A DNA stretch of 64,000 nucleotides, from NCBI GenBank assembly GCA_032718475.1, contig JAUCBJ010001340.1:1-64000 (forward strand). Reading direction: 5' to 3'. Origin of the DNA: Nemertoderma westbladi. Taxonomy: Eukaryota > Animalia > Xenacoelomorpha. Position 1 is the first letter of the stretch, and the number at the start of each line of letters is the position of its first letter. Under the pieces are notes generated by a model, which made no database searches, was not told the origin of the DNA, and worked only from the letters and a program-made list of their open reading frames with translations. Of the stretch, positions 216-64,000 are shown piece after piece. Made by a program: the position numbers and the translations under genes.

Positions 216-228
216 AACGTTAACTCAC

Positions 229-498
229 CTTCCTAACATCCCATAACCTCATCACCCCAAAGGCGTCGCAGCTCGCCACAGTGTCCCCTCTGGCGTTGAA
301 TGCGGCGTGATTAATGGCGTGTTGGTGACCGTAGAATGTCTGACTCGGCCTCCCGGTTCGGGCGTCCCAAAGGGAAACGGTTTTATCAGCGGATGACGTT
401 ATCAGCGCGTTCGAATGACTCAGGAATTCCACGGAATTCACCGAATCGGCGTGGCCACGAAGAGTCGAACGGCACCGACTGCTTCCCAAATCCCAAAT
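229..498 (-). CDS. SPAG16: SPAG16/PF20 exon 3 (WD40 repeats); gene continues beyond the left edge
   Basis: Acceptor TTTATAG|ATTTGG at 499/498 gives IWDLGSSRCRSTLRGHADSVNSVEF...SSADKTVSLWD...GHQHAINH...LWDVRK. Donor AAG|GTGAGT at 229/228. Confidence 0.88.
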
Positions 499-867
499 CT
501 ATAAACGGAAAATAATCCCTTAGCAAATACGATGCATTGATAGGCCCGGATATTAAATGCCAACCAAATTATAATGGGGTAATTCAACGCGACATCTAAA
601 AACAATGATGCTATACATAAAATTTATCCAAAATTTATGTTTTTAAGAAGTTTCTAACTACAGTATGTGGGGCGAGCCACGAAGTGAGAGAAGCTTTAGC
701 ATGGGGTACCATTAATGAGTTGTCTGTCGTCGCCTAATTTCTGATCGCTAATAACTCGGTAATTCCTTGATTAAATTAAACCAAACTTGGTACGTATGCA
801 GTCTCGCGTTGCGCGAACGCACCACGAACGTGTAATATATTGTAATATACTATTATATCAATATGAC

Positions 868-1678
868 CTTTACAGTTGAGTCCATGCTACAGGTTGCCAT
901 GAACAACCCGTTGCTATGCCAACTGACTCCCCAAACAGGTTGTTGGTGCTCGGCGAAGGTTGCCACGCAACGTCCCTGCTGGAAGTCCCAGACCTTAGTG
1001 GTTCGGTCGCCGCTGGTTGTGGCCAATCGTCTGCCGTCCGGGTGGAAGTCGCAGCCCGACAGCCAATCAGAGTGGCCCTCGCCCGTCATGACGCAATCCC
1101 CGTCGGGCAGGGACCACATCTTCCACTTCCGGTCGTCGGAAACCGTGACTAACAGCGGCCTGTCTGGGTGCAGGGCCACGGCGCTGACGGAGAGCGCGTG
1201 GGCGTCCTGCACGGTGTGAGTGAGTCGGAAGCCCCCCGAGCGGGTCAGATGGCGGGCGGGGCCCTTGGCGTTGGGGCGTCCCAGCAGCGGGTTGACCCCG
1301 AGGTCCCCCGGCCAGACGGAGTCCCCGGATGCAACTCGGGGTCCCTTCACCGCCACGTCCTCGGGGTCGCCTAGCAACCCGACCGGGCGTTGGCCGCGCA
1401 ACGCCGCCAGCCGACCCTGCGTGGGGCCTGTAACCCCTGGCGATGAGTCGGCCTCCTCCCGGACCGACTGTATGGTCTGCAGTGTCTGGGCCAGTCCCGT
1501 CGCCTGTCCCACCGCTCTGTCCCGCTCCAATCTGGACAACATTTTCTCCTTCATTGCGACCTCGTACTTATGCTGTAAGGAGGCGAGCGCTGGCTCGAAC
1601 CCGCTGTAATGTAGCTTCAGTCGTCTGATATCGTCGACTAGTTTCGATTTCTCCTGCACAACCCTTCTATGGTGCATT
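868..1678 (-). CDS. SPAG16: SPAG16/PF20 exon 2 (coiled coil and first WD40 repeats)
   Basis: Acceptor TTTTACAG|A at 1679/1678 completes the Arg codon begun in exon 1. MHHRRVVQEK...AMKEKML..LERD is the conserved SPAG16 coiled coil, followed by GH...WD repeats. Donor AAG|GTCATA at 868/867 joins in frame to IWD. Confidence 0.9.
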
Positions 1679-2085
1679 CTGTAAAATTAAGTTATGATAT
1701 CTAAACTGAGATTTCGCTCTATTAATTGTAGGCCTACAGACCTTGCCCCGGAATATAGTGTCGTAATTCAGTGACATGCAACCCTCCCTCGAGTTTTCTT
1801 AATAAGATTGCATGAAATTTGAAACAGAGATAGTTTCACCTCCCTTATCCTTCCATTTTTTAGCTACAAACGTTTAAAAAATAGTGTCTCCATCGATATT
1901 GCACCAGTGTTGCACCGCAGTTATGTATGTATCATTTGCTTCCGCTACACACAGGCTAATTATTTATTCTACTTCTATGTTCTGTAACATTTAATAACTT
2001 TTTTTTAAAATAATTATAGCTGACAACAGGTCACGTTTAAAAAAATATCTATAAAAATATTTTTAAATAAAATAATTGTTCCTAC

Positions 2086-2600
2086 CTATGGTAATCGCGT
2101 TCCTTCCTCAGCCGTATATAGGTGTTCCGAGCTTTCCCTGCGGCATCTTTGAATTTCTGCAACTCGATTCTCAGGACTTTGACTTCGTTATCAAGTTTTT
2201 GATTCTTCGCGTAGATATCCGGCACTATGGATACGTCTTGCGCGCTGAGAAGCCCTTTCTGCTGGAGTTCGTACCACTCGGTCTGGAAGCTGTTCAGAGT
2301 GCGCCACATTCCCATTCGAACGAGGAAGTTCCGCAGAAAGTCGTCCACAACTTCCGGACGCGTCGTGACACTAGAGGTGACGAGTGAGGCCTTCCGGGTC
2401 CCCAGCTGGATGTCCTCGGTGGCCTCACGGAGAGTTCGGACAGCAGTGTCCAGGTCCTCGTCTCCGGACGCCTCCAACTCCTGTTCCAAAACCGGAACCT
2501 CTCCGTAATCGAACTCATCTTCTGAGTCCTCGTCGATAGACACTTGATCCAGTGTGTAGAGTTCTTGTTCGTCCGGTTCCGATCCTAGTAGATCCGCCAT
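2086..2600 (-). CDS. SPAG16: SPAG16/PF20 exon 1 (acidic N-terminus, LisH-like segment)
   Basis: ATG at 2600. Motifs RPEVVDDFLRNFLVRMGM..TL..FQTEWYE and LRKERDYHR are characteristic of SPAG16. Donor AG|GTAGG at 2086/2085. Confidence 0.9.
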
Positions 2601-3852: not shown

Positions 3853-4956
3853 CAGGCCCGTAGGCCTATCGTGCGGGGGGCTTTGGGGGCACTGCCCCCC
3901 AGACAAGTTCCACTGCCCCCCCCCCCCCAGACATGTCTAGTTCACTCGTCTTGTTCTGTTCACAATTAATTAACTTGTCTTATTCACAATTAATTAATAA
4001 TAATATTTTTGTTGTTGACCCCAGTGATCAATATTATTGGATACACATTTATACACTTATAATATAATAGGATACACACTTTTACACACTAACCGGACTC
4101 CTCACCATCCCATTTTGGTCCAATTATATAATACTACATGACATTAACCTACCTACCTGTAATTACTAAAAAATACCCGAAAGCTCCAGGTTCTCTCATT
4201 GGCTACCAGGGGTTGTTTGTTGTTGACCCATTGTCTATAATTTGGGAGCCAGCTTGCAGCTAAAAGGCTAGGCGCCGAGGGTTGCTTGCGCTGGTATCCA
4301 TTTAATTTGTTGTAACTTAACCTTAACCATATTATACCTGAAGTGTGTCCTTCGCGCAGCACGTCACATAAACTTATGTAAGTGTTAACTCGAAAGAAAT
4401 ATAAGCAAAATCTAAGCAGATGTCCCTTGATCACTTTACAACTAGAGGCAGTCTGGAAAACTGCAGTCGATTTAAGATATCAGAAAAAGTTTAAATGTCA
4501 CAGTAATGGTCTAGTTTCCGCTTAAACGGATTATTAGCAAAGAAATGGCAGGACATTTAATGCTTAGACAAGTAGCCATCTAGCAGGAGACTGTTGAACT
4601 GTTGGTGTCAAATGTCGCTAAATAATGTCAAGTTTTGGACATATTTATGCCCTACAAATTTTCAATTCGACAGCTTTAAATCTGACAAAGTTATTTGAAT
4701 GTTACGTTAATGAAATCGTTACGTCAACAACTATTTGCCATTATTTACATACTCATTAACAGTGTCAGTTCGCCAAGGCTCCGCCAACTTCGTGGCTCGC
4801 CCCACACACCTTTCAACAATATTAATAGTACTTTATGTACTAAATTAACTCTCACTTTGTTGTATGCTCCCCAAATCCCAGTTATGGGTTTGCCCCTCAG
4901 ATTTGGCCTCTGCCCCCCCCCCCCCCCCAGATATTATGATCACCATACGGGCCCTG
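3853..4956. mobile_element. Non-autonomous hAT-like DNA transposon (about 1.1 kb)
   Basis: Imperfect TIRs CAGGCCCGTA (3853) and TACGGGCCCTG (ending 4956). Flanks ATGTTGTC (3846-3853) and ATGTCGTC (4957-4964) form a 7/8-identical 8-bp TSD. TGCCCCC...AGA motifs occur near both ends. No transposase ORF. Confidence 0.6.
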
Positions 4957-5869
4957 ATGTCGTCTAGAAAGCCGAGAACAACAAATTAAAAATCTATAAA
5001 TTCTTCAACCTCAGTCTCAATGTGAACAAAGTTTACAGTTCTGGAATTCCAGATATACTTCTGATTAGCTATACCCGCTTGCGTTTATCATCGTAGAGTC
5101 TCTGGGTAGAAACTGGTCGATGGTTTGGGGACATCGATTGTGCAACTGTCCTACCGGTGGTGACCAATATGGACTTCATGCAATGAGCGTTATGTGACTA
5201 CACCGAGGACATCCGTTCGATATGGTTTCAGTTTCAACAAATATATCAGACGAATTTGAGAAAATGATTCGGCACTGCTAGGTGGCGCTGAAACTTTATG
5301 GACATTTACAGGTTTGTTATAAATAATATTAAATTTGATTAAGTAAAAAGTTGTCGGATACATTTAAGCACAGTTTAATAGGGAGACAGTCAAAGAAATT
5401 GAATTGCTAAAAAAATGTAGTACGGTTGTGAATGGGAAGGAAATGGGAGAACTCGAAAACTAGAAGAACTATTGATATGCGGTTTTCAGATTAGGAAACT
5501 AAGTAGATGTAGAATCGTGTATTATAATAGATCATAAAACCAATTTAATGATTTTTTTGAACCAAAATGCTGTTCTAACCCCCAACCCCTCCCCATTATT
5601 ATAACTTCAAAAATACAATTTATAATAAATTATAATTTATTATTAATTAATTGGTACTAAATTAAATATGGTATACAATAGGTATAAATTAATATTCTAA
5701 AAGACCACTGGGTAGGTCGACCTTCCTTTATCAGTATCATTTGTTGGTTCCTACAACATTGTTGCATAAGTGAGGCCTATTAGTACCGGTAGTAAAACGA
5801 TACACTTTATATAGTAACAACTATTACAAAATAAAATGTTATTTATTATTAAAACGAATCCTAATATAA

Positions 5870-5875
5870 TTTATT
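5870..5875 (-). terminator. Candidate original poly(A) signal of the PRDM9-like gene
   Basis: AATAAA on the minus strand about 53 bp past the original stop (5928); a second one lies at 5842-5847. The region is AT-rich, so support is weak. Confidence 0.35.
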
Positions 5876-5927
5876 TAGTCTATTCTTCCTTGTGGGAAAG
5901 ACTTTCCTTCCCTCAATAAACAACAGT

Positions 5928-6026
5928 TTACTGATTCTTCGCCATGTGCTGGTTACGTTTATGGGTCGATAGACTTGATGTTTGGGAGAATGCTTTACCG
6001 CAAGTATCACAGATGTAGGGTTTATC
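5928..6026 (-). pseudogene. Displaced last zinc finger and original stop of the PRDM9-like gene
   Basis: Minus strand translates DKPYICDTCGKAFSQTSSLSTHKRNQHMAKNQ*. It continues the HTGD linker interrupted at 10974 and is too short to appear in the ORF track. Confidence 0.9.
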
Positions 6027-6027
6027 T

Positions 6028-6047
6028 GGTATTGGTATTGGTATTGG
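6028..6047 (-). repeat. LINE 3' microsatellite tail (CCAATA)n
   Basis: Plus strand GGTATT x3 then GG, directly against the TSD. Short tandem 3' tails are typical of CR1/L2-group elements. Confidence 0.8.
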
Positions 6048-6262
6048 TTTAATGGTGCTCAAAGTATAACATTAAAAGGAACATTAAAATAACACAATTA
6101 TTAAATAACAACAAACATTACATAAGGAACAATAAGGAACATAAGGAACAATATCAAAACTGAAACTGAAGTTATGTTATTATAAATTTGACGCTATAAA
6201 AATGTTATTATGTATTATAGTTATTACTCAATCAGAATGCTTATAATAAATACATTGCGCAC

Positions 6263-6308
6263 CGGGGATAGCCCCTTAAGGCGAGCCTTGTTTCCGAGAG
6301 GGTCCCCG
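6263..6308 (-). other. LINE 3'UTR stem-loop (candidate RT recognition element)
   Basis: Minus strand CGGGGA-CCC-TCTCGGAAAC-AAGGC-TC-GCCTT-AA-GGG-GCTA-TCCCCG: nested complementary arms with a GGAAAnAAG core, set in an otherwise very AT-rich UTR. Confidence 0.6.
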
Positions 6309-6753
6309 TGGTTAGTTCAATGGGTAAATTATACAGTATAATAAAGATTCGGCGTCATGTATAAAACAATAAAAAAATAAATAAATGAGGTTTCAGGTGC
6401 ATGAATAATTAAAATATTACATTCTTTAGAACTATGATAAGTATTAAAAAAAAAAAAAAAGAATAGTTTATTAATATTTACATTAATGCATAAAATTTTT
6501 AAAAAGCCATCCTCATGTGCGTACGTAGATTAAAATATTTGGTAAAATTAACCATTGAAGTGTAGTAGCTTCAGTAAAAATTAAAATCAGTATTTCTCCC
6601 CTTAAATATCTCTTGCAAAATAAAAAATGGGGATGCTTTGTACAAAAATTAAAACTTGTTATGATTAGTTATTTTAGAGTTTTGAGATGTAATAGTTCAT
6701 TAATAGTATAAAAAAAATTAAACGCTAATAATTAGTAAAAAGTATAATTAAAA

Positions 6754-9687
6754 TCAGTGTATTCTATTCCAGATCGCTGGGCCCTTATAGTCAAAGGAGA
6801 GCTGGCCAAATGCGGTGTTTTTCTGTGGGATGACCGCTTTAGTTTGGGGGGCGCGCGTGTCACGTGTGGATGAGGAGAAGTCCACCATTTCCTGTATATA
6901 GCTCGGGGTGACGTTATGGTGAGTTTTGTACATGATAGTTGCCAGGTTTTGTTTAATTCGTAGTTTAATGGGTAGCCAGTTAATTTCTCGAAAGTGTGAA
7001 TTGTCGATGTGGGTGCGATTGTCCAGTCCCAGGCAATACCGGATACATTTCCGTTGTAGGGCCTCCAGTTTGTTTCTCCATAGGATACTAATAGATTGGA
7101 ACCACACTGGTGATGCATAGTCCATTAGTGGTTGTATTAATGCATTGCATAGTAGGCGGCGTGTATTGTAGTCTAGTACACCGGCAAATCGCCACAGGAA
7201 CTTTAACCGAGAGTTGCCTTTCTTTATTATTGTTGCAACCATCGATTCACTGTTTAGAGTTTTATCTAATTTGCAACCGAGGTAGTTGACCGAGTCCCTG
7301 TTCGCTATTGCTTTCCCATTGCATGTCACATTTAGTGGTTCGTTTATGGCTAAACGTTGTGCTGTTCCAAATAGGATACTTTCGGTTTTACCTAAATGGA
7401 GAGTTAGGCGGTTGTCTATGAGCCATGCTTGGGTGCATTCTAGATTCCGTGTTAGTGATTCCGATATGGTTCTTGAGTCTGAGCCAGGGACTAAGTGCGA
7501 TATGTCGTCTGCGAACATCGGGGTGGGGCAATCAACGGCTTGGTCCGAGTCATTGGTGTGTGAGAGGAAAAGTAGGATCGCTAAGAGAGTTCCTTGTGGT
7601 AAACCGTCATCCAGCGTGCGTTGATCTGAGTCAACCCCCTGTATGGTTACAACTTGGGATCTGCTTGATAGATAGGATTCAAGCCACGCTATTGCTTTGT
7701 TGTCAAAGCCCATGTATTTCAGTTTCATCAATAGTATGTTGCGATTCACCGTATCATAAGCTTTCTTGAGGTCTATTAACACCATCCCTGTTAACTGGCC
7801 ACCATCTGCTGCTGATCGGATGACAGTGTCTATAAATATCAAGCATGTTTCCGTTGAATAGCCTTTACGAAAGGCACTTTGAAGTGCAGATATGATAGAG
7901 TTTGATATCAAGTAATGGTACATCTGATCGTAGATTACTTTTTCTATAATCTTGGAGAGAATAGGTAGTAGAGACACTGGTCTGAAGTTTTCACGTTGAG
8001 TTTGTGTGCCCCTTTTATAGATTGGTGCCACTTTGGCTAGTTTCATAGCTGAGGGAAATTTACATGTTGTTATGGAGATATTTATAATGTGAGTAATTGC
8101 TTTTGTCAGCTCAGTGGAACAGTCCTTATATATTTTTGCTGGTATACCATCAATGCCGGGACTTTTATCGGGATTAAGGTCGCATAAGATACGAGAAACC
8201 ACATCCTCTTCAGTTTGTTTTAGAGTAAAGCTATCTTTAGTTATTCCCTTAGATTCATAGTATCTGGCAACTGCAGCCTCACCAAAGCGACCTGTAGGTG
8301 GCGGTAATTGGGTTTCCAATTCATTAGCAACACCAGTGAAGTATTCGTTAAACGCATCAGCTATTTGTCTAGGGTCAGAAACTAGTTCGGTTCCATTATT
8401 GATTGTAAGTGGTCCATTTGATTGGCCTTTCTTTGATGGTAAGCCGAGGTTTTTGAGGGTCTTCCATAATTGTTTAGAGTTAGTTCTGTTCTCCTTAATT
8501 TGTTCTCGTATGTATGTCTGTTTAGTTTCCTTTATGAGTTTGGTGGTGTCATTCCTGATTCTCTTGTAATTTGTTTCATTTTCTTCAGTGCGATATTTTC
8601 TTGCTGTGGTTAAGGCTTTATTCCTCATAGTTATAGTGTGTAGAAGATTTGGAGTTAGCCAGGGTTCGGTATGAGTTTTGATTCTGATATCCCGTTTCGG
8701 TGCTATAGTGTTGAGGATATTTAAAATCTCAGAGTTTAGAATGTCCACGGCCTCATCCACGTCATTTATATTGCCAATGTTATTAATTTTACTATTGTTC
8801 ACAATCATTTCCTTTAGTTTTGGTATGGAGTAGTCTCTGTATGTTCTAGCTCGGATTATTTTTGGTATGTATTTATGGTTTTTAATTTTCTTCCTGGTGA
8901 CATATACGATGTAATGATCACTAATGCCGACTTCTATTACTCCAGATGCTGTAACTTTATTTTCCAGTGCTGAAGTATAAATGTGATCGATAATGGTAGA
9001 AGATATCTCAGTAACACGGGTGGGGTCCTTGATTATTTGTTTAAGTCCAGTAGAGGCACAGAATGAGTCAACTATGTTTTTATTGCTTCGGTCATTACTA
9101 GATATGTCTGCATTGACGTCTCCAAGGATATAAATTTCTTTATGGTTAGATACCGTTCCAATAAAAGATTCTAAGGATTTGAAGAATTGAGTTATAGATG
9201 ACTCTGGAGGTCGATATACCGATCCAATGAGGATTTCTTTGGTGTAGGGCATAATGAGAGTTCCAAATACCCCTTCAATATCCATTTGATTCAGTGAAAT
9301 GCAGGCATTAAATACCAAATCGTCTCTAGTATATATTGCAACCCCTCCCCATCCATTCTCATTTCTATCCTTCCTGGTAATTTTATACCCTATGATTTCG
9401 ACTTCTTTGTCAGATACTGAGTCATCCAACCACGTTTCAGATACAGTTAGTATGTGTATTCGAGTATATAGTAGGATCAGTTTCAGTTCTGTTAGTTTTG
9501 GTAATAAACTTCTAACATTGAGGTGTAGCATGTGTATTCCTGGTTTTTCGAATATGGGAGTCCATGGGTATATCAGGGTGCCGGTGCTTGGAGGGGGTGA
9601 ATTTTGGTGTATGTCGTCAGTTGAGATTGACGGATTGTGATTTTGCTCTGTAGTTTGGTTATGAGTTTGGGTTTGAATGTTAGGTAG
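6754..9687 (-). CDS. LINE ORF2: apurinic endonuclease plus reverse transcriptase (open from 9687; first ATG at 9531)
   Basis: APE motifs HLNVRSL, SETWL, GGVAIY, VYRPP, GDVN, IDH, SDH. RT motifs KSPGIDGI, NFRPVSLL, QSAFR, DLKKAYD, GLPQG, FADD, YLG. No internal stops or frameshifts. Confidence 0.95.
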   Translation of the reverse strand, partial: LPNIQTQTHNQTTEQNHNPSISTDDIHQNSPPPSTGTLIYPWTPIFEKPGIHMLHLNVRSLLPKLTELKLILLYTRIHILTVSETWLDDSVSDKEVEIIGYKITRKDRNENGWGGVAIYTRDDLVFNACISLNQMDIEGVFGTLIMPYTKEILIGSVYRPPESSITQFFKSLESFIGTVSNHKEIYILGDVNADISSNDRSNKNIVDSFCASTGLKQIIKDPTRVTEISSTIIDHIYTSALENKVTASGVIEVGISDHYIVYVTRKKIKNHKYIPKIIRARTYRDYSIPKLKEMIVNNSKINNIGNINDVDEAVDILNSEILNILNTIAPKRDIRIKTHTEPWLTPNLLHTITMRNKALTTARKYRTEENETNYKRIRNDTTKLIKETKQTYIREQIKENRTNSKQLWKTLKNLGLPSKKGQSNGPLTINNGTELVSDPRQIADAFNEYFTGVANELETQLPPPTGRFGEAAVARYYESKGITKDSFTLKQTEEDVVSRILCDLNPDKSPGIDGIPAKIYKDCSTELTKAITHIINISITTCKFPSAMKLAKVAPIYKRGTQTQRENFRPVSLLPILSKIIEKVIYDQMYHYLISNSIISALQSAFRKGYSTETCLIFIDTVIRSAADGGQLTGMVLIDLKKAYDTVNRNILLMKLKYMGFDNKAIAWLESYLSSRSQVVTIQGVDSDQRTLDDGLPQGTLLAILLFLSHTNDSDQAVDCPTPMFADDISHLVPGSDSRTISESLTRNLECTQAWLIDNRLTLHLGKTESILFGTAQRLAINEPLNVTCNGKAIANRDSVNYLGCKLDKTLNSESMVATIIKKGNSRLKFLWRFAGVLDYNTRRLLCNALIQPLMDYASPVWFQSISILWRNKLEALQRKCIRYCLGLDNRTHIDNSHFREINWLPIKLRIKQNLATIMYKTHHNVTPSYIQEMVDFSSSTRDTRAPQTKAVIPQKNTAFGQLSFDYKGPAIWNRIH

Positions 9688-10788
9688 TCAATCCATTGTT
9701 TCTGCATCTGTTGGAGATGGGTGATTGGATGAGCGCCTAGGTAATGAAATTTTTGCGGCGTCACTGATGGCTCCCCTGTATATAACCCAGTTCTTATTAG
9801 GTTCGGCAGATTGTTTGGCCCGGCGTTGTTCGCGAAGTTCATACTGTAGTTTTCGTTCTGACGCCGTGTAGTCAGGGGTGATGTAGACATTTTGGTAGTG
9901 TTCTGATTGTCTTAAGTTTCGAGCACTTCTAAGTAGTTCCATTCGTTTTTCAATGGGCAAGGTTACAACAATAGACTGTGTTCCATTGTTTTTTGGTTTC
10001 CCAACTCTTCTTGTTTTTATGTCTTGTTTAAGTATAATAACGTTTACTGAATTAGCTATATCAGCAATCAATGTCTCATCATCAGTGACCGCAGGTGTAG
10101 TTCCACTTACTAGAAGATTTCTCTTGCGTTTATTTTGTTCTGATTCCTCATCTTTCAGCATTCTAGCAAGTAGAGCTACATTATTGGAAGGTTCATTTTT
10201 GTTTTGTTTCAGGGCCGCAGCGTAGTTCATTGGTTGTCCACATGGGACAGTGGCTGGTTTCTCCGTTGTTTCTTTAAGTTTCAAGTTTATATCGGATTGG
10301 TTAGATTCGATATCCTTTAACTTATATTCAATATCACTCTGTAAAGAAGCTATTGTTTCACTTGCCAGGTATGTATCTTCCTTTATGCGATGTTCGAGAT
10401 TGTCAATTTGTTGTTGGAAATCTAGGAATTGCTGATCGGTTAGAGACTTATGTTTCTCGAGATCTTTGTTAACCTGAGTCAGTTGTTTTCCCATACAACG
10501 TCCACAGCGAAAGTCAACATGTCCGAAGTCTGTTCCTGATTTGGCTATACATATCATAAATATGTCACAGCTTGTTCCAGAGCAGCCAACTTCTATCTCA
10601 GTGTACCCGTCATCGCGTTTCGATTGAGTTGGTGTTATACCTGTACTGGTCAACGGTTTACCGATTTTCGGATTTGGAGACCCGTTATTTGGTCTTGTAG
10701 CCCTAGTAGTAACGCTGTTTCGACGGATGTTATTCCTTTGTATTTCAACATCGTTGGTTCTGTCGTTTCGGTTTCGTTGTGAAGACAT
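9688..10788 (-). CDS. LINE ORF1 (Cys-rich PHD-like region, coiled coil, RRM/CTD)
   Basis: First ATG at 10788 (MSSQRN). Cys cluster CSGTSC...C...CGRC, heptad-rich segment, RKRNLLVSG and VYITPDYT..ER motifs typical of CR1/L2 ORF1p. Confidence 0.85.
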   Translation of the reverse strand: MSSQRNRNDRTNDVEIQRNNIRRNSVTTRATRPNNGSPNPKIGKPLTSTGITPTQSKRDDGYTEIEVGCSGTSCDIFMICIAKSGTDFGHVDFRCGRCMGKQLTQVNKDLEKHKSLTDQQFLDFQQQIDNLEHRIKEDTYLASETIASLQSDIEYKLKDIESNQSDINLKLKETTEKPATVPCGQPMNYAAALKQNKNEPSNNVALLARMLKDEESEQNKRKRNLLVSGTTPAVTDDETLIADIANSVNVIILKQDIKTRRVGKPKNNGTQSIVVTLPIEKRMELLRSARNLRQSEHYQNVYITPDYTASERKLQYELREQRRAKQSAEPNKNWVIYRGAISDAAKISLPRRSSNHPSPTDAETMD

Positions 10789-10884
10789 TTCACGGTTCTT
10801 TATTAAAGTGATTGCCGAGTAATTTTTATACCAAATACCAATAAACCATATATCAATTATATAATATATAATGTTTATATACAA

Positions 10885-13157
10885 TTATAGGCAGGAGGTC
10901 AGGCTGGTAACCGGTACTCGTACTGGTAAGTACGAAATTGCAGAATAACAATTTGACACCACTGTTATACCGGTATCTCCTGTGTGGACACGTTGGTGGC
11001 GTGTTAGATGGGAACTCCTGGCGAATGATTTACTACAGACGTTGCAACTGTAGGGTTTATCTCCTGTGTGGATACGTTGGTGGGCTGTTAGATCGGAACT
11101 CTGGGTGAATGATTTACTACAGACGTTGCAACTGTAGGGTTTATCTCCTGTGTGGATACGTTGGTGGGCTGTTAGATCGGAACTCTGGGTGAATGATTTA
11201 CTACAGACGTTGCAACTGTAGGGTTTATCTCCTGTGTGGATACGTTGGTGGGCTGTTAGATGGGAACTGTTGGTGAATGATTTACTACAGACGTTGCAAC
11301 TGTAGGGTTTATCTCCTGTGTGGATACGTTGGTGGGTTGTTAGATCGGAACTCCTGGCGAATGATTTACTACAGACGTTGCAACTGTAGGGTTTATCTCC
11401 TGTGTGGACACGTTGGTGGGTTGTTAGTTCGCAACTCTGGGTGAATGATTTACTACAGACGTTGCAACTGTAGGGTTTATCTCCTGTGTGGATGCGTTGG
11501 TGGATTGTTAGATGGGCAGTCTGGGTGAATGATTTACTACAGACGTTACAACTGTAGGGTTTATCTCCTGTGTGGATACGTTGGTGGGTTGTTAGATGGG
11601 CAGTCTGGGTGAATGATTTACTACAGACGTTACAACGGTAGGGTTTATCTCCTGTGTGGGTACGACTGTGTTTTATTAGATGGCCGCTCTCTGAGAAAGC
11701 TTTGCTACACATAATACATTGGAAGGGTTTCTCCCCAGAGTGAGTGCGTTCGTGCTCCATTAGTTTGGATTTAAATCGGAACACCTTCCCACAAGAACTG
11801 CATCCCAAACTATCAACAGGTTTATCTGAACTGTAACGTTTCTTGGGACCAGTGGGAACGTTGGAACCCAAACCTGTTGGAGTAGAACCGGGTTCATTGA
11901 GTTTCCGTTTTAAATGGGAAACGAGAAAAGATTCCACCGTGTAGACAACGTCGCAATGTTCGCACGGGAATTTATGCAAACTCATATCGTGAGCTAAATC
12001 CAATCTCTTCCTCTCAGCACATCCACCTAGACTACTTTGGTGTCTAATAATTGCCTCCTGATTAACAGACTGGTAACTTCCACACCCGGTACACAGAATC
12101 ATCCCGTCTTCCATAACTTTCATCCCCAATTTCTTATCCTTCGGTTGTTTACTAATTAATCCCATTTCTTCCGCGTAACTCGTTCCGTACCAAGTAAGGA
12201 GTTCCGTACCGGCTGCAACTGCTTTACAGACCCGATAATATATATCCCCTCCCAACTGGAACCCACAGAGGGTTTGCTCCTGTTCCCATTTGGCGCAATT
12301 TACGTAGCGCATCCAATTCGACTTGCACTCCTGTCTCCCGCTGATGGTAAAGTATCTACCCTCATCATCCAACAGCAACCAGCTGTAACCGTCGGACTTA
12401 CCGGATTTAGGTTTACCTGGTTTCCTCTCTCCATCATAAGGACCAAATAATGTTCCTGGATTCAAGTCGACCTTGGTAAACACCCCTTTATTATGAATTA
12501 GAGATTTCTTTATCTCCAAACACGACGGAAGTGATCTGCTGCCCCGGTTCCTTCCACCAAGAGTGGTTTCGGTATTCGTTATGAAGTTAAACTCCCCGTG
12601 TACCGGACACTGTAATTCGTTATATTCCTCGCCGCAAAGGTCGCAGAATATAAACTGGTTAAAGGCCTTAATAGGGCAGTTGCGATTGGCGTAATCGGGG
12701 ACCCCCTTTCTGGGTCTTAAACCACATCGGGGTTCGAAAGGAGCCGTCGATTTAGGAGTTACGATGATATTTAAATGCGACTCAACTGTAGAAGAACCCG
12801 AAACCACTGTAACCATTTCTTCTTGCTCAGCTGCTGCGGTCGGACATCCGCCACTAGAAGTCCTTTCGGTTTCGGAATCAACGCGTCCCAAACTGTTAGC
12901 GAGTTTATCGTTGACGAATTCCTCGGTACCTCGTACAGCTGGAGCAACAGTAACCGAGTGTCTACCAGAACTGACGTCATCAACATTCTCCAACAGATCG
13001 ATCGCTGGATCAGATAGATTCACATCGGGAATACATTCTAGCTGTTCTTTTATTTCCTCGATGGAATTAGTTGGAACGCTAAAAGATGGCGAATTAAAAC
13101 CTCCTGTTTCCCTGACAATATCGGTCGGAGATAAATTCACTAAGTTCCCTTCTGTGG
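10885..13157 (-). CDS. PRDM9: PRDM9-like histone methyltransferase / C2H2 zinc-finger protein (5' end uncertain; current C-terminus derived from LINE 5'UTR)
   Basis: SSXRD-like RCGLRPRKGVPDY (~12691-12729). Zinc knuckle CDLC..CPVHG (~12595-12648). PR/SET FGPY..NWMRYVNCA..EQ..IYYR..ELLTWYG (~12170-12530). Post-SET finger (~11900-11970). Ten tandem C2H2 fingers. No KRAB domain within this ORF. Orthology (PRDM9 vs a related PRDM) needs a phylogeny. Confidence 0.8.
10974..11659 (-). repeat. Coding minisatellite: eight near-identical 84-bp zinc-finger units
   Basis: GAATGATTTACTACAGACGTT.CAAC.GTAGGGTTTATCTCCTGTGTGG recurs every 84 bp. Differences cluster in the recognition-helix codons. Confidence 0.95.
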
Positions 13158-14819
13158 CTGAAAGCGGCCATTTTTAATTAATTACCAATGTTATATAAGT
13201 TTTAATTGGGTATTACTATTGCCACATATTGTAATCTTATTCGGATAGATATATTGATTGATTGTATGAATATTCGCATATCTCGAGATATGGGCGTTAT
13301 TTTGGGGAACTTATTTAGGATGGAAAATATACCAAATGTTAATCTCTACAAGTTTCAAACTTGGTATTTATTTACCATGCGGTGTTAATAAAAGTTAGTG
13401 TAATCGCCCACATTGAGATCGCAGGTAGGTTATTTTAGGATATTAAAGTCATAAAAATTGATAAAAAAATTCACCAAAACAATTATATCTCATCAATTTA
13501 AACAATGTCACCACAAAAATTATCCGGAATCAAACAAAAAATATTATGTTTGGGTCACACGAAAAAATTATCTCAACAACAAAATTGATTGTTCAACACC
13601 AAATAAACAAAGAAATGGTCCCCAAAACCAATGATCCATACCGAAATCAATCACAAACACCCAAAAATAAACACAAATTTTCTCCAAAAGAAATATATAT
13701 TCCCAAAAAATAAATACATCACTACACCATGTCCCGTAATATAGTGTCATTTTCTGATGACACGGACCACCCAAATTTTTCTACAAATCTTTATCATATT
13801 GCTTGAAATTTCAAACACCACCAGTTCACCTCACCGTCGCGTCGATGTCGACATTATTAGGCGAGTCAATCTAGCCGAAAAAGGGGGTCAACCCATAACA
13901 AATTCGCAATTCATCCAAACTAATTTTTTTTTATTCTACATTACCTTGTTAATACCCCCAATAAAGTCTATAAAAATATATTATGCGGATCACCTTCAAT
14001 TTCCTGTTTCTTTCCTTAGCAACAGGGATTTTACATAGCAACAAGGGGTCTATTAGTGGGATTTTCTCCAAATTTGGTACAGACCAACTTTACTCTAATG
14101 ACTATCGATTGACAGAAGTATGCACTTCTATATGGTTACCAATTTAGTTTCCAGAGCAACAGAAATTTGTCTAATAATTTAACCATTTTTAATATCAATT
14201 TTGCTGGTACAATATAAGGAAGCTTATTTACATAACTTATCTACTAAACGGGTGGATGTAACCTCGCCCATCGGATTTATCGACCTCAGAAACCCTTGTC
14301 CCAAAAAAATGTATTTGTTATATGATAAACTATTGTGGTTTTCAAACTAAAACAAATAAATAAATTACACCTAAAATCAATAGAGTAATCACAATTTAAT
14401 TATGTGAAAAATCTTCACTAACATTAATGGAAATTATGATATTTTTCATAACGGTTACCTTAATATATCGTGAAGTTTTTGATATATTTAAAAATTTGAT
14501 GCGACTTCTAGTTTCTGAGATATAGCAATTAATGTGTAACACGCCAGTGTAAATATTACTAATATCCTATTGAATCACAGCTTATTGTGAAATTAATTAA
14601 ATTATTCTGGAACATTACCAATTTGCTACTTACTCTTCCCTACTGTTTCTTTTGTTTGGCTTGTGTTATGCAAATTTACGCAGAATTTCCATGAATAAAC
14701 ATATGATCCGCAAAATAAAATTTTAAAGACTTTTTTTGGTCATTAATAAGGTAATACAGAATCCAAAATGTGTGGTTCGGATTGATTGCGAAATAGTTGT
14801 GGGTTTTTTGTTAGATTGA

Positions 14820-15395
14820 CTCGACTATAAACCATCATTTTCGATTTTGCCTTAAAAAATTTTTTATAAGCGTTTTAAAAAAGTGTCTTTTGCCATATCG
14901 CACCCTCCGTGTCGTGGCCATTCTTCACATTAGTCGTAATTTTTCAATATTATTAGAAAGCTTGGGTCGCAAGGATTCGAAATATCTAACAATATCTGAA
15001 TTTCGTTGAGAAATAGCAGATTGCAATAATTATTGTTCGTTGAAGGTCATTTATTCTATTTAATAAATACACAATGTTCTGGAACATTTGTTTATGTATG
15101 AATTGCTATGCAATAGATATATTGGATAGGAATACCGCTGCTAGCCACCTACTCATAAAATAAATAACACGTTCGAGAATTTTGTGTATTAAATAGAATA
15201 AATGGTCTACAGCAAAGAATAATTCTTGCAATCTTTGAACGCCTATATCTCAGCTGTTTCTCAACGAAATTCATATATTGTTACATTGTTGAAGAATGGC
15301 CACGATACGGAATGTGCGATTCGCAAAATATATTTTTTTAAATATCTATAAAAGTTTTAAAGGTAAAATCGAAAATTCCGGCTTCATGTTAACAA
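14820..15395. mobile_element. Degenerate foldback/MITE-like palindrome (about 570 bp, boundaries approximate)
   Basis: Arms include TCCGTGTCGTGGCCATTCTTCA vs TGAAGAATGGCCACGATACGGA, GAATTTCGTTGAGAAA vs TTTCTCAACGAAATTC, ATTTATTCTATTTAATA vs TATTAAATAGAATAAAT and ATTTTCGATTTT vs AAAATCGAAAAT, centred near 15120. Confidence 0.7.
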
Positions 15396-15972
15396 CCACG
15401 GTGAGTGGAACTAGTTGTGTTTCAAATTTCAAGCAATATGACAAAGATGTGTAGAAATTTAAAAAATGTGAAACCATAAATATTAACCGTTGGCATTTAT
15501 TATGCCTGCCAAACACAACTAAAGTTAAGGAAAGAAGCAGTTTATATACTAGGTTGTACTTTCTAACAAAAACAATGTACGATAGATATGCTTTAACAAT
15601 GTTGGGAAAAAAACCAGGATACAAAGAAGGGCTTTTCTAACCAAAACAATAAACGATAGCATTAAAAATAGAAAAATGAGCAGGTTACAGTGTTCGGATA
15701 CTATAATATACAAATGAATAAACATATAAAGATAAACCTTTTTAAGGTTAATGAATAATTAATAAAATTTAATGAATAAAGTTCCATAAAATATTCGAAG
15801 AAACATCATATTTGGTATCGTTTTTGGTTTGAAAGCGAATTAAAATTGGGGTACAAATAATTGTTTTGGGTACCGGTATGAGTAATTTAATGATTTTAGG
15901 GATGAGATATTTAGATTAGGGGATGTAAATTGGTGCTGCAGAAAAATATTTGTGCTAAATAATTAAATTTCT

Positions 15973-16062
15973 GGGGCCGTATTCATGAAAGTCCTAGTAC
16001 CGAGATAACTCTAGCTCGGTACTAGGTTCTCAGTTTTATCTCCGGACTATGAAGAAACGGTG
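15973..16062. mobile_element. Small Harbinger-like MITE remnant
   Basis: Outer imperfect IR CCGTATTCAT..AGTCC / GGACTATGAA..ACGG and an inner perfect 12-bp IR CCTAGTACCGAG (15993-16004) / CTCGGTACTAGG (16015-16026). Confidence 0.45.
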
Positions 16063-16233
16063 ATCTTGGAATCTTGGTCTTGGGATATGCAACAAGATAA
16101 GAGTATAATTTTGATATTGATTTTAAAATAAACTATTTATTTTGAGGTGAAGTTTTTACAGTTTTAAAACTCAAAAAAAGAAATAAAAAAATATTTTAAC
16201 TTATTTTTAATTTTTAGAGTTTTAAAACTGATA

Positions 16234-62015: not shown

Positions 62016-64000
62016 TAGGTCAGGTCAGGTATTCTAGGTCATTGATCAAGAAAACTTGCCACCTCCATGCAGCATAAAGGAGGTGCCACCTGTAGCTGCA
62101 TAGACCATCTTACTAGGGCAAATCTGGCCCTGTAACTAGGACCCCCTTCGTTCTGGGATAAGGACGCCCTTGGTCCTGGATTAAGGACCCATATACTTGG
62201 CTGCAGGGGTATATGGCCTGACCAGGCAGATGGTGATCTACCAATGGCTGGTCAGGAGTAGAGTGTTCTCATGTCCACTCTGAGAGCACTTCACTGCGAC
62301 CTGCACCTGGCAGCAAGGGTACAGGGCATGACCCAGCAGATGAGCTGCAACAGCCAATGGTGGGTCATGTGAGCCAGAGTAGATATGGGTGATGGGCCTC
62401 ATATCTGACTCCATTGCGACACCCACCCTGTGGAATGGCAAACCAGGGTGTGGTATTTGCCCCGAGAGCTGACTCGGCAAAAAAGCACCCCCCAACCCCC
62501 ACTATGGATTACATTAGCAATGCGGAGGTCCGGCCACTAGAGGCCAGTGGAATTACCGGACACAATCGGCCTCACAGGCGTCAGTTAACTCCTGACCGGC
62601 TGCCTGTCTCACCCCCTACTGGAGAGAGAGCAGCCAACAATTCTTTGAGTCCCTTTCCTGATGACCTTTCTGGCCCAAACCCTGGGTCACCAGGAAGGCC
62701 AGATTGTGATGGGGAGAGGGATTCTGGAGTTGGAGGCTATTCTCATGTTCCACCCCGACCAACAAAGCCATTGGTGAATCTGAGGCAAGTCACAAGACTA
62801 GCCTCAGTAAACACCCTAACACTCGGGTCCCCAATGCGACAAGGTGAGCTGACTGCCTTGGCAGATAAGCTTTCTCTTAGCGCAGTGGGTGTTCAAGAGC
62901 ACCGAATGCAGACTGGACAGACTGATGAGGTTCTGATTAAGGACATGGGGGGCGGTTGGCGACTCGCCCTCGCGTCAGCAGATGATAGTGGCAATGGTGG
63001 AATTGGTCTATTGATGAATCCAACTGCACATGCAGCATTGGACAAAATAGACCAAATCTCTAACCGCATCATCCGTTGCCACTTCTCATGTTCTGGAAGA
63101 CTGGCTAAGAAGTTTCCTAAGGTGGTTCTGATTGTGTGCTACTCTCCAACTAGTGTTGCCCCTGTAGAGGAGGTGGAAAATTTTTTACCACAATCTACAA
63201 GCAGCTACTGATGGAGTGGATCAGCATGCATTCTTAACATTCCTGGGAGACTTTAATGCAAGTCTGCATCAATCACCTACATCGCCCTGGGTCTATAGCA
63301 ATAGTGTTAACCGAAATTCTGTCCATCTTCAGGATTTTATCTCTGGAAATGGATTGTTTTCGGCTGGAACCCAGTTCAAGAAGCGAACTGGAAAGCTATG
63401 GACTCATAGTGGACCCAGTGGTCACAAGTCCCAGATAGACCATATTCTGTTTCGTAGGAAATACAGGAGCACTATACAAGACTGTAATGCATTTACACTT
63501 CGACCCTTCTCCAGTGATCACCGCCTTATTGTGGCCAAGGTAAGACTTAGTCTGCGTGCTAGCAGAACAACGAAATCTGCCTTGCCGCGGCATGACTGGT
63601 CCTCTCTGTTGCAACAGCCAAGTGTGAGATCCAGCTTCACACTACAGCTGAGCAACAGGTATGAGGCTCTTGCCTCTGAGGCGGCAGATCACTGTGAGGG
63701 CTATACTGCCTTTACAGAAGCAGTTAAGTTAGCAGCTGCGGTAACAGTTCCTGTATACCCTCGAAACAGGAAAAGGGCCCCCTGGACTGACAACAAAATT
63801 CAGAAGTGCCGAAATGACCTCCATAAGGCGCAGAAAGAGTCCCGACTCAAACAGACTACAGCGGCCAAGAATGCAGTTAAGGCTGCATCTAGGTCCCTGA
63901 ACAGGCAGTACTCTGCTAATCTACAGGAGCTAATAAACCAACAGGTTGATGCCATCAATGATGCTGACGACAGCAGGCAATCATCCCAGGCATGGAAATC
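62016..64000 (+). mobile_element. RTE-clade non-LTR retrotransposon, 5' part (continues past the window)
   Basis: A leader of about 490 bp precedes a single APE-type ORF with no separate ORF1. Motifs VGVQEHR, GGIGLL, NRII, YSPT, GDFNA, LWTH, QIDHIL, SDHRL, LSNRYEAL are typical of RTE elements. Confidence 0.85.
62504..64000 (+). CDS. RTE ORF, endonuclease domain, with a +1 frameshift in a T6 run at 63181-63186
   Basis: ATG at 62504 (MDYIS...). Removing one T gives ...EVENFYHNLQAATDGVDQHAFLTFLGDFNA, and the frame then stays open through the SDH motif and beyond. Confidence 0.8.

What the first reader, a model, noticed from the sequence alone, without database searches (positions are those of the whole stretch)
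5928..10978. Full-length LINE inserted inside the PRDM9-like zinc-finger array, removing the last finger
Seen: the array stops at HTGD (10974) and resumes 4.95 kb away as DKPYICDTCGKAFSQTSSLSTHKRNQH..* (6026-5928), with AGATA duplicated on both sides. The empty site would be CACACAGGAGATAAACCCTAC, identical to the other linkers. The break falls in a linker, so ten fingers stay intact and gain a 29-aa tail (TGITVV...TSCL*) from the LINE 5'UTR. Inference: a recent retrotransposition created a new or hypomorphic allele of a candidate recombination-hotspot specifier, a route to allele turnover other than minisatellite mutation.
Basis: partly seen in the sequence, partly recalled or inferred. Interest (0 to 1): 0.85.

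Follow-up and report, generated by a model that had tools for sequence, protein, structure and literature searches.

The report
LINE clips one PRDM9-like gene copy
A retrotransposon, likely inserted very recently, sits just before the last zinc finger of an animal PRDM9-like gene, but the gene is likely one of a dozen or more similar copies and all eight variable DNA-reading fingers are untouched, so this is likely ordinary damage to a spare copy rather than a new recombination-hotspot allele.

Summary
A 4,946-bp LINE (ORF1, endonuclease-RT ORF2, short tandem tail, 5-bp duplication) splits the linker before the last finger of a PR/SET-zinc-finger gene. Contigs of two public runs join array to last finger without it. 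'Full-length' is overstated: ORF2 lacks 86 bp at its end. The copy is about 99.9% identical to its family, so it is young.

The gene has PRDM9 hallmarks: best PDB match PRDM9, three catalytic tyrosines, 64% of array diversity at contact residues. Against a hotspot allele: (1) contig depth over SET is 12-39 times flank depth, with contigs about 90% identical, so likely a multicopy family; (2) no KRAB or SSXRD was detected in the window, though upstream exons beyond a 46-kb satellite are not excluded; (3) SET lacks a G-x-G motif kept by 157 of 179 homologues; (4) the lost finger is a divergent cap, and no contact residue changes.

Likely a near-neutral birth-and-death event. A GT-AG pair could splice the LINE out in frame (untested). 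The scan had no note on this locus; it noted PRDM9-derived families in sea urchins.

The parts
10885..13157 (-). Large coding exon of a PRDM7/9-type gene: acidic linker, zinc knuckle, PR/SET, two degenerate fingers, ten C2H2 fingers, then a 29-codon tail from the element. The 5' end at a candidate phase-1 splice acceptor (AG 13159-13158) is inferred; the first in-frame ATG is at 12816
12154..12660 (-). Zinc knuckle plus PR/SET domain; tyrosines matching Y276, Y341 and Y357 kept; two-residue gap removes the G-x-G motif
10974..11664 (-). Coding minisatellite, 8.2 units of 84 bp; 9 of 15 variable bases lie in contact codons; PoD 0.64
10974..10978 (-). 5' copy of the target-site duplication (AGATA)
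6028..10973 (-). CR1/L2-type LINE insertion, 4,946 bp, same sense as the host gene
10896..10973 (-). First 78 bases of the insertion. 10922-10962 matches a separate very high-copy repeat, and the X2 contig of this LINE runs into other sequence beyond 10895: possibly a chimeric 5' end
   Evidence: tables 2, 7, 8
10799..10804 (-). AATAAA about 80 bases after the new stop codon: candidate poly(A) signal for the truncated transcript (inferred)
9688..10788 (-). LINE ORF1 (366 aa from ATG). No Pfam or PDB hit; atlas neighbours are PHD-bearing and FP-like proteins (0.91, Pfam share 11-21%: a lead)
6754..9687 (-). LINE ORF2, endonuclease + reverse transcriptase; 86 bp missing at 6763/6764, C-terminal end lost
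6028..6053 (-). ATTAAA signal and short ACCAAT tandem tail at the element's 3' end
6023..6027 (-). 3' copy of the target-site duplication; supplies an AG (6027-6026) that with GT at 10970-10969 would allow in-frame splicing (untested)
5928..6026 (-). Displaced terminal finger and native stop; 58-64% identical to array units; Pfam zf-C2H2 E 1e-6

Best explanation
A LINE of likely CR1/L2 type sits in the last linker of a PRDM9-type zinc-finger gene that is likely one of a dozen to a few tens of copies, and it would give a ten-finger protein with a 29-residue foreign tail and likely the same DNA preference, a likely near-neutral loss buffered by the other copies. Shown: structure of the insertion, target-site duplication, tail, new stop, intact array, array-plus-last-finger form in other contigs. 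Inferred: insertion by target-primed reverse transcription (established knowledge of non-LTR elements); recent date (99.9% identity to the family); copy number (contig depth, rough); use of the AATAAA at 10804 to end the message; little change in binding, because the lost finger is the divergent, family-conserved cap. The event fits the known birth and death of PRDM9 paralogues.
For: Depth over the SET core (12126-12581): X1 4675-6477, X2 425-739, X3 1146-1450. The highest depth of near-identical flank contigs was 166, 35 and 53, giving ratios of 28-39, 12-21 and 22-27. The longest contigs over the coding region are about 90-93% identical to the window (32/348, 27/283, 42/464, 15/166 differences). 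At several sites all 5-8 contigs differ from the window. At 5943 window-type letters make up 33.5 of 2658 depth in X1, 17.7 of 206 in X2, 37.8 of 583 in X3. A KRAB profile that finds 74 of 201 homologues (lowest score 18.4) gives at best 5.5 bits in six frames of the whole window. The SSXRD-region profile and Pfam find nothing in the main frame. SET departs at 11 of 54 highly conserved columns and lacks G-x-G (157 of 179 homologues have it). Human arrays end in a degenerate finger and binding is set by inner fingers (10.64898/2026.09.10.750150, passages). 6-14 paralogues in salmonids, where shortened arrays need not impair function (PMC11703093, passages). 1-11 truncated paralogues in cnidarians (10.64898/2026.09.07.749791).
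Against: The tool states that summed contig depth is no copy number; overlaps and GC bias can inflate it, and X1 and X3 (one sample) disagree. The three catalytic tyrosines are kept and PoD 0.64 lies in the full-length range (0.29-1.0 in cnidarians) and above vertebrate truncated copies (at most 0.524). The frame is open for 119 codons before the first ATG, with an acceptor-like site at 13158, which points to missing upstream exons that could hold a KRAB beyond the 46-kb satellite. Whether the last finger matters for binding or stability is untested. No RNA was available.
Confidence: 0.62

Rival explanations
1. One reading: this is a working full-length PRDM9 whose KRAB exons lie beyond the satellite, and the insertion makes a hypomorphic or altered hotspot allele.
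For: PRDM9 is the best PDB match (E 1.6e-32, against 2.5e-28 for PRDM11 and 1e-16 or weaker for the other PRDMs). Tyrosines kept, PoD 0.64. The distance from acceptor to knuckle, 168 aa, is within the KRAB-to-knuckle range of homologues (23-308, median 127, n=68). The satellite is nearly free of AG and GT on the gene's strand (50 and 117 in 45.8 kb), so it could be an intron. Several full-length paralogues can coexist in cnidarians.
Against: No KRAB in 64 kb; SSXRD not detected; G-x-G motif lost. Many near-identical relatives would dilute one allele. Contact residues are unchanged. The AG/GT scarcity follows from the strand's base skew and is not independent.
Confidence: 0.13
2. The copy is effectively a null: it was already decaying, or the LINE now silences it or exposes its message to nonsense-mediated decay through a 5-kb 3' UTR.
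For: New stop 5 kb before the native end; 11 of 54 conserved SET columns differ; a 1.7-kb inverted-repeat element and a 46-kb satellite lie just upstream.
Against: The frame has no stop or shift over 762 codons. A deep X2 contig covers the G-x-G gap without a gap of its own (12370-12612, depth 196), so the gap looks family-wide, not private decay. An AATAAA sits 80 bases after the stop.
Confidence: 0.12
3. The LINE is spliced out as a new intron, using GT at 10970-10969 and the AG that the target-site duplication supplies at 6027-6026, restoring eleven fingers with two extra linker residues.
For: This pair restores the frame exactly; 4 donor-acceptor pairs near the ends do so. Primate PRDM7 gained an intron from a duplicated splice site (PMC2082429, passages).
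Against: The donor is weak (no +5 G), the acceptor lacks a T-rich tract, and ten AATAAA/ATTAAA signals lie inside before the tail signal. One frame in three fits by chance.
Confidence: 0.1
4. Assembly artefact: a LINE contig was joined into a collapsed zinc-finger repeat.
For: Both parts are repeats; no listed contig bridges either filled junction; the X2 contig leaves the window's sequence at 10895.
Against: A misjoin would not produce a 5-bp duplication, a proper tail and an exact linker on rejoining. An X3 contig reads 10694-10950 as in the window at single-locus depth (29.2).
Confidence: 0.03

Closest known systems
PRDM9 (human, mouse; PDB 4C1Q, 4IJD, 6NM4) and invertebrate PRDM7/9
   Same: Zinc knuckle, PR/SET with three tyrosines, post-SET finger remnant, homogenised 84-bp array varying at -1, +2, +3, +6, divergent terminal finger.
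   Different: No KRAB or SSXRD detected; G-x-G motif missing; SET and array in one exon, where cnidarians use 2+1 and salmonids 3+1 exons; likely far more copies; only 27-43% identity to any database protein.
Truncated and duplicated Prdm9 paralogues of cnidarians (SZ, XSZ, kXSZ) and salmonids
   Same: Birth-and-death families; tyrosines often kept; some keep a fast-evolving array, read there as a remnant; arrays shortened by stops or shifts.
   Different: Here the shortening is by a LINE; the rough copy number (12-39) is at or above the 14 and 11 reported there; PoD 0.64 is high for an SZ form.
Primate PRDM7
   Same: A PRDM9 duplicate whose finger region was cut by an inserted stretch giving a new C-terminus, with possible removal by splicing (PMC2082429, passages).
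   Different: PRDM7's insert is an 89-nt internal duplication that removes all fingers; here a 4.9-kb retrotransposon removes one.
CR1/L2-group non-LTR retrotransposons (Crack/Daphne-like; clade names recalled, from no call)
   Same: Two ORFs, AP endonuclease plus RT, PHD-like ORF1 lead, tandem-repeat tail, many 5'-truncated relatives (depth rises stepwise towards the 3' end in X2: 65, 128, 194, 233).
   Different: Best relative only 40% identical and unnamed; this copy lacks 86 bp at the ORF2 end; the RT core departs from the homologue consensus.
Expanded zinc-finger families against transposons (KRAB-ZNF, FiNZ-ZNF; 10.1101/2022.11.29.518450, passages)
   Same: Many young paralogues with diversity at contact residues.
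   Different: Here the head is a PR/SET domain; no target or repression was tested.

Membership tests
PRDM7/9 subfamily | PR/SET domain closest to PRDM9 among PRDM proteins | tested here: met
   three PRDM9 entries rank first of 15 hits; top named hits are PRDM9-like. Ranking by similarity; no tree was built.
Hotspot-specifying (full-length) PRDM9 | KRAB domain | tested here: inconclusive
   Absent from all six frames of the window (best 5.5 bits against at least 18.4 for 74 true hits), but upstream exons outside the window are likely and no genome was held.
Hotspot-specifying (full-length) PRDM9 | SSXRD motif | tested here: not met
   No Pfam hit at E up to 1; a profile from 68 homologues does not list the main frame at E 10. 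A faint basic motif before the knuckle may be a remnant.
Hotspot-specifying (full-length) PRDM9 | Catalytic tyrosines Y276, Y341, Y357 | tested here: met
   alignment with 179 homologous segments; alignment. The G-x-G motif (cofactor-binding role recalled, not confirmed in the passages) is missing.
Hotspot-specifying (full-length) PRDM9 | Homogenised array with diversity at contact residues | tested here: met
   PoD 0.64 over 8 units against 0.14 if uniform; the two upstream fingers and the last finger were left out.
Hotspot-specifying (full-length) PRDM9 | Meiotic expression, allelic polymorphism, hotspots that follow genotype, ZCWPW1/2 present | not testable with these tools
   No genome held; contigs only.
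Non-LTR retrotransposon (LINE) | AP endonuclease + RT ORF2, ORF1, 3' tail, short target-site duplication | tested here: met
Intact, full-length LINE | Complete ORF2 and the family's own 5' end | tested here: not met
   86 bp missing at 6763/6764 against all 4 runs; ORF2 ends before all 10 homologues; 5' 78 bases differ from the X2 form.
CR1/L2 group, exact clade | Placement in an RT tree with named clades | not tested
   The best relatives are unnamed; the group is assigned from recalled features and the atlas lead.

The most novel reading that the evidence does not exclude
This little-sampled animal runs tens of young PRDM9 copies at once, each with its own fast-changing array and an active SET domain, so hotspots or transposon marks are set by a gene family instead of one locus. 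A LINE has landed in one of them, gains its germline promoter, and is tolerated because its own target-site duplication supplies the splice acceptor that removes it in frame.
Probability: 0.1. Interest if true: 0.72.

Novelty: new member of a known kind. Interest (0 to 1): 0.3.

Why it matters
As a single event it matters little: a retrotransposon hit a likely redundant paralogue and left the variable fingers alone. I found no report of a LINE inside a PRDM9 array in the listings of two searches (titles and abstract starts only), so the case is unreported as far as these reach, but it is of a common kind. The host family is the better lead. If long reads confirm more than about 15 PRDM9-like copies with kept tyrosines and contact-focused diversity, that exceeds the counts reported for salmonids and cnidarians in the papers read. 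It would bear on the open question of what extra PRDM9 copies do outside vertebrates.

Tried and rejected
Whole-genome search: no genome held. RNA: no RNA holder listed. Run X4 (word share 0.14) shows no cover over most of the SET region and the 5' part of the LINE; not used as evidence. Bridging of the filled junctions: not among the listed pieces; tables cut. Polymorphism of the insertion: the unbranched X2 contig leaving the window at 10895 is only a weak hint of absence, since contigs drop rare forms. Target preference for zinc-finger linkers: the two other 3' junctions listed (X3 at 6039, X4 at 6028) do not continue into a finger; rejected for lack of support. Retrocopy origin of the gene: considered because SET and array share one exon; not favoured, since relatives also share about 500 bases upstream of the acceptor and neighbouring SPAG16 has large exons too. 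ATG at 13172 as the start: out of frame (25 codons), and no common indel is listed there (34 rows not shown). Rfam over 5300-16200: one chance-level hit, E 0.24. KRAB hidden inside the satellite: no unique island of 25 bases or more. Lineage: SPAG16 is at most 56% identical and about equally near cnidarians, echinoderms and molluscs, so only 'animal without close relatives in the database'. Earlier notes: none by sequence or by the first word search. No structure or complex prediction was run. Supplements of the papers were not read; the cnidarian preprint's tables of paralogues may bear on copy-number comparisons.
Full report
Observation. On the minus strand an open frame runs from 13173 to 10885. 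It holds a PR/SET domain (Pfam PRDM2_PR E 4e-33) and ten C2H2 fingers. Eight fingers form an 84-bp minisatellite, 88-100% identical between units. The ninth linker breaks at 10974; 29 codons of foreign sequence follow to a stop. The linker resumes at 6026 with one more finger and the native stop at 5928. AGATA lies on both sides (10978-10974, 6027-6023); the chance of a 5-mer match at two random sites here is about 0.0013. The 4,946 bases between hold ORF1, an endonuclease-RT ORF2 and a short tandem tail.

Independent check. No genome was held, so I used public runs: 6 listed, 4 holding part of the stretch, none on record as RNA. All 4 were laid, as contigs. Runs X2 and X3 each have a contig joining 6013 to 11049, a skip of 4951 plus one array unit, and X1 and X2 show last-finger letters beside an array unit. 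So array plus terminal finger is the native layout. The X2 contig differs from the window at 11 of 195 letters, so it is probably another copy of the gene. No listed contig bridges the filled junctions (773 pieces not shown). An X3 contig matches 10694-10950 at depth 29.

The LINE. Long contigs differ from the window at 2 of about 4,490 letters (X1) and 4 of about 4,530 (X2): a young family. Depth in X2 rises stepwise from 65 at the 5' end to about 230 at the 3' end, as expected of a few long and several 5'-truncated copies. All 4 runs carry 86 more letters at 6763/6764. The window's ORF2 stops where 10 of 10 aligned homologues go on for about 20-35 residues. So this copy is nearly, not fully, complete. 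Its first 78 bases may be chimeric: 10922-10962 matches a very deep repeat, and the X2 contig runs 404 letters into other sequence beyond 10895. The best ORF2 relative is 40% identical and unnamed. ORF1 has no Pfam or PDB hit; atlas neighbours carry PHD domains in 11-21% of members. The CR1/L2-group label rests on recalled features, not on a tree.

The host gene: for PRDM9. PRDM9 ranks first among 15 PDB hits (E 1.6e-32; PRDM11 2.5e-28; others 1e-16 or weaker). The three catalytic tyrosines are kept, and 64% of the array's amino-acid diversity lies at positions -1, +2, +3, +6, against 14% if uniform (8 units counted; the two upstream fingers and the last finger left out). That lies in the range of full-length cnidarian copies, 0.29-1.0 (10.64898/2026.09.07.749791; parts 1-5 of 7 read).

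The host gene: against a single hotspot locus. First, copy number. Summed contig depth over the SET core is 4675-6477 (X1), 425-739 (X2) and 1146-1450 (X3). The deepest near-identical flank contigs reach 166, 35 and 53, giving 28-39, 12-21 and 22-27 times. The tool warns that this is no copy number. But the long contigs there are only about 90-93% identical to the window, 5-8 contigs per run differ from it at several sites, and window-type letters are 1-9% of depth at 5943 in the last finger. A family of a dozen or more is the simplest reading. Second, domains. A KRAB profile that finds 74 of 201 homologues (lowest 18.4 bits) gives at most 5.5 bits anywhere in the window; SSXRD was not detected. 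This is not proof of absence. The frame is open for 119 codons before its first ATG and begins at an acceptor-like site (13158), so an upstream exon is likely. A 46-kb satellite starts 3 kb upstream and has almost no AG or GT on the gene's strand, so it could be an intron; earlier unreviewed notes on this genome describe giant intronic satellites. Third, SET departs at 11 of 54 highly conserved columns and lacks a G-x-G motif present in 157 of 179 homologues. Its role in cofactor binding is recalled; the passages read did not state it. A deep X2 contig shares the gap, so it seems family-wide.

Likely effect. The lost finger is 58-64% identical to array units and about 94% identical to a paralogous contig: a conserved cap, not one of the variable readers. 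Human arrays also end in a degenerate finger, and inner fingers set specificity (10.64898/2026.09.10.750150, passages). Salmonid arrays shortened by stops are not counted as necessarily impaired (PMC11703093, passages). An AATAAA at 10804, 80 bases after the new stop, could end a short stable message (inferred). An insertion of this kind can only cut an array; it adds no new contact residues, so it is a poor engine of allele turnover. One twist: GT at 10970 and the AG supplied by the duplication at 6027-6026 would remove the LINE in frame with two extra codons. The sites are weak and many internal poly(A) signals intervene, so I give it 0.1. Primate PRDM7 offers a loose precedent (PMC2082429, passages).

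Comparison and novelty. PRDM9 duplication, truncation and loss are well described: 6-14 copies in salmonids, up to four full-length and one to eleven truncated copies in cnidarians, lineage-specific duplications across animals (PMC4760075, passages). Expanded finger families with contact diversity are also linked to transposon control (10.1101/2022.11.29.518450, passages). The listings of two searches showed no LINE insertion in a PRDM9 array. The scan had no note on this locus and has noted PRDM9-derived families in sea urchins (unchecked). The host is an animal with no close relative in the database (SPAG16 at most 56% identical).

Verdict. The gene belongs to the PRDM7/9 subfamily; membership of hotspot-specifying PRDM9 is not established (SSXRD not met, KRAB open). 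Best explanation: a young LINE clipped the cap finger of a likely redundant paralogue, near-neutral (0.62). Rivals: altered hotspot allele 0.13, null copy 0.12, spliced out 0.10, artefact 0.03. New member of a known kind; interest 0.3, most of it owed to the possibly large gene family.

Noticed in passing
window 16234-62008: 45.8-kb satellite of a 30-bp unit (about 1,500 copies, 89% matches), GC skew about 0.84, with higher-order repeats; no unique islands; almost no AG or GT on the minus strand, so it could be an intron of the PRDM9-like gene.
   Followed up: partly
window 5650-13720 (without the LINE): The PRDM9-like gene looks like one of a dozen to tens of copies about 90% alike, sharing about 500 bases upstream of the large exon.
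   Followed up: partly
window 13778-15457: 1.7-kb non-coding element with 60-bp terminal inverted repeats and nested internal inverted repeats, extremely deep in all runs: likely a non-autonomous DNA transposon.
   Followed up: partly
window 7480-7620 (-): The RT core of this LINE departs from residues shared by all 10 aligned homologues, yet an X1 contig of depth 745 matches it with no difference, so a recently active family seems to carry an unusual RT.
   Followed up: no
window 10922-10962: 41 bases shared with a very high-copy short repeat of unknown kind that has other flanks; no Rfam hit.
   Followed up: partly
window 5366-5512: 147 bases present in some contigs and skipped in others in X1, X2 and X3: likely a polymorphic small insertion.
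   Followed up: no
window 227-2600 (-): SPAG16 (WD40 axoneme protein) with few, large exons; at most 56% identical to any database protein.
   Followed up: partly
window 62600-64000 (+): Broken endonuclease region of another non-LTR retrotransposon at the far end of the satellite (Pfam Exo_endo_phos E 2e-4).
   Followed up: partly
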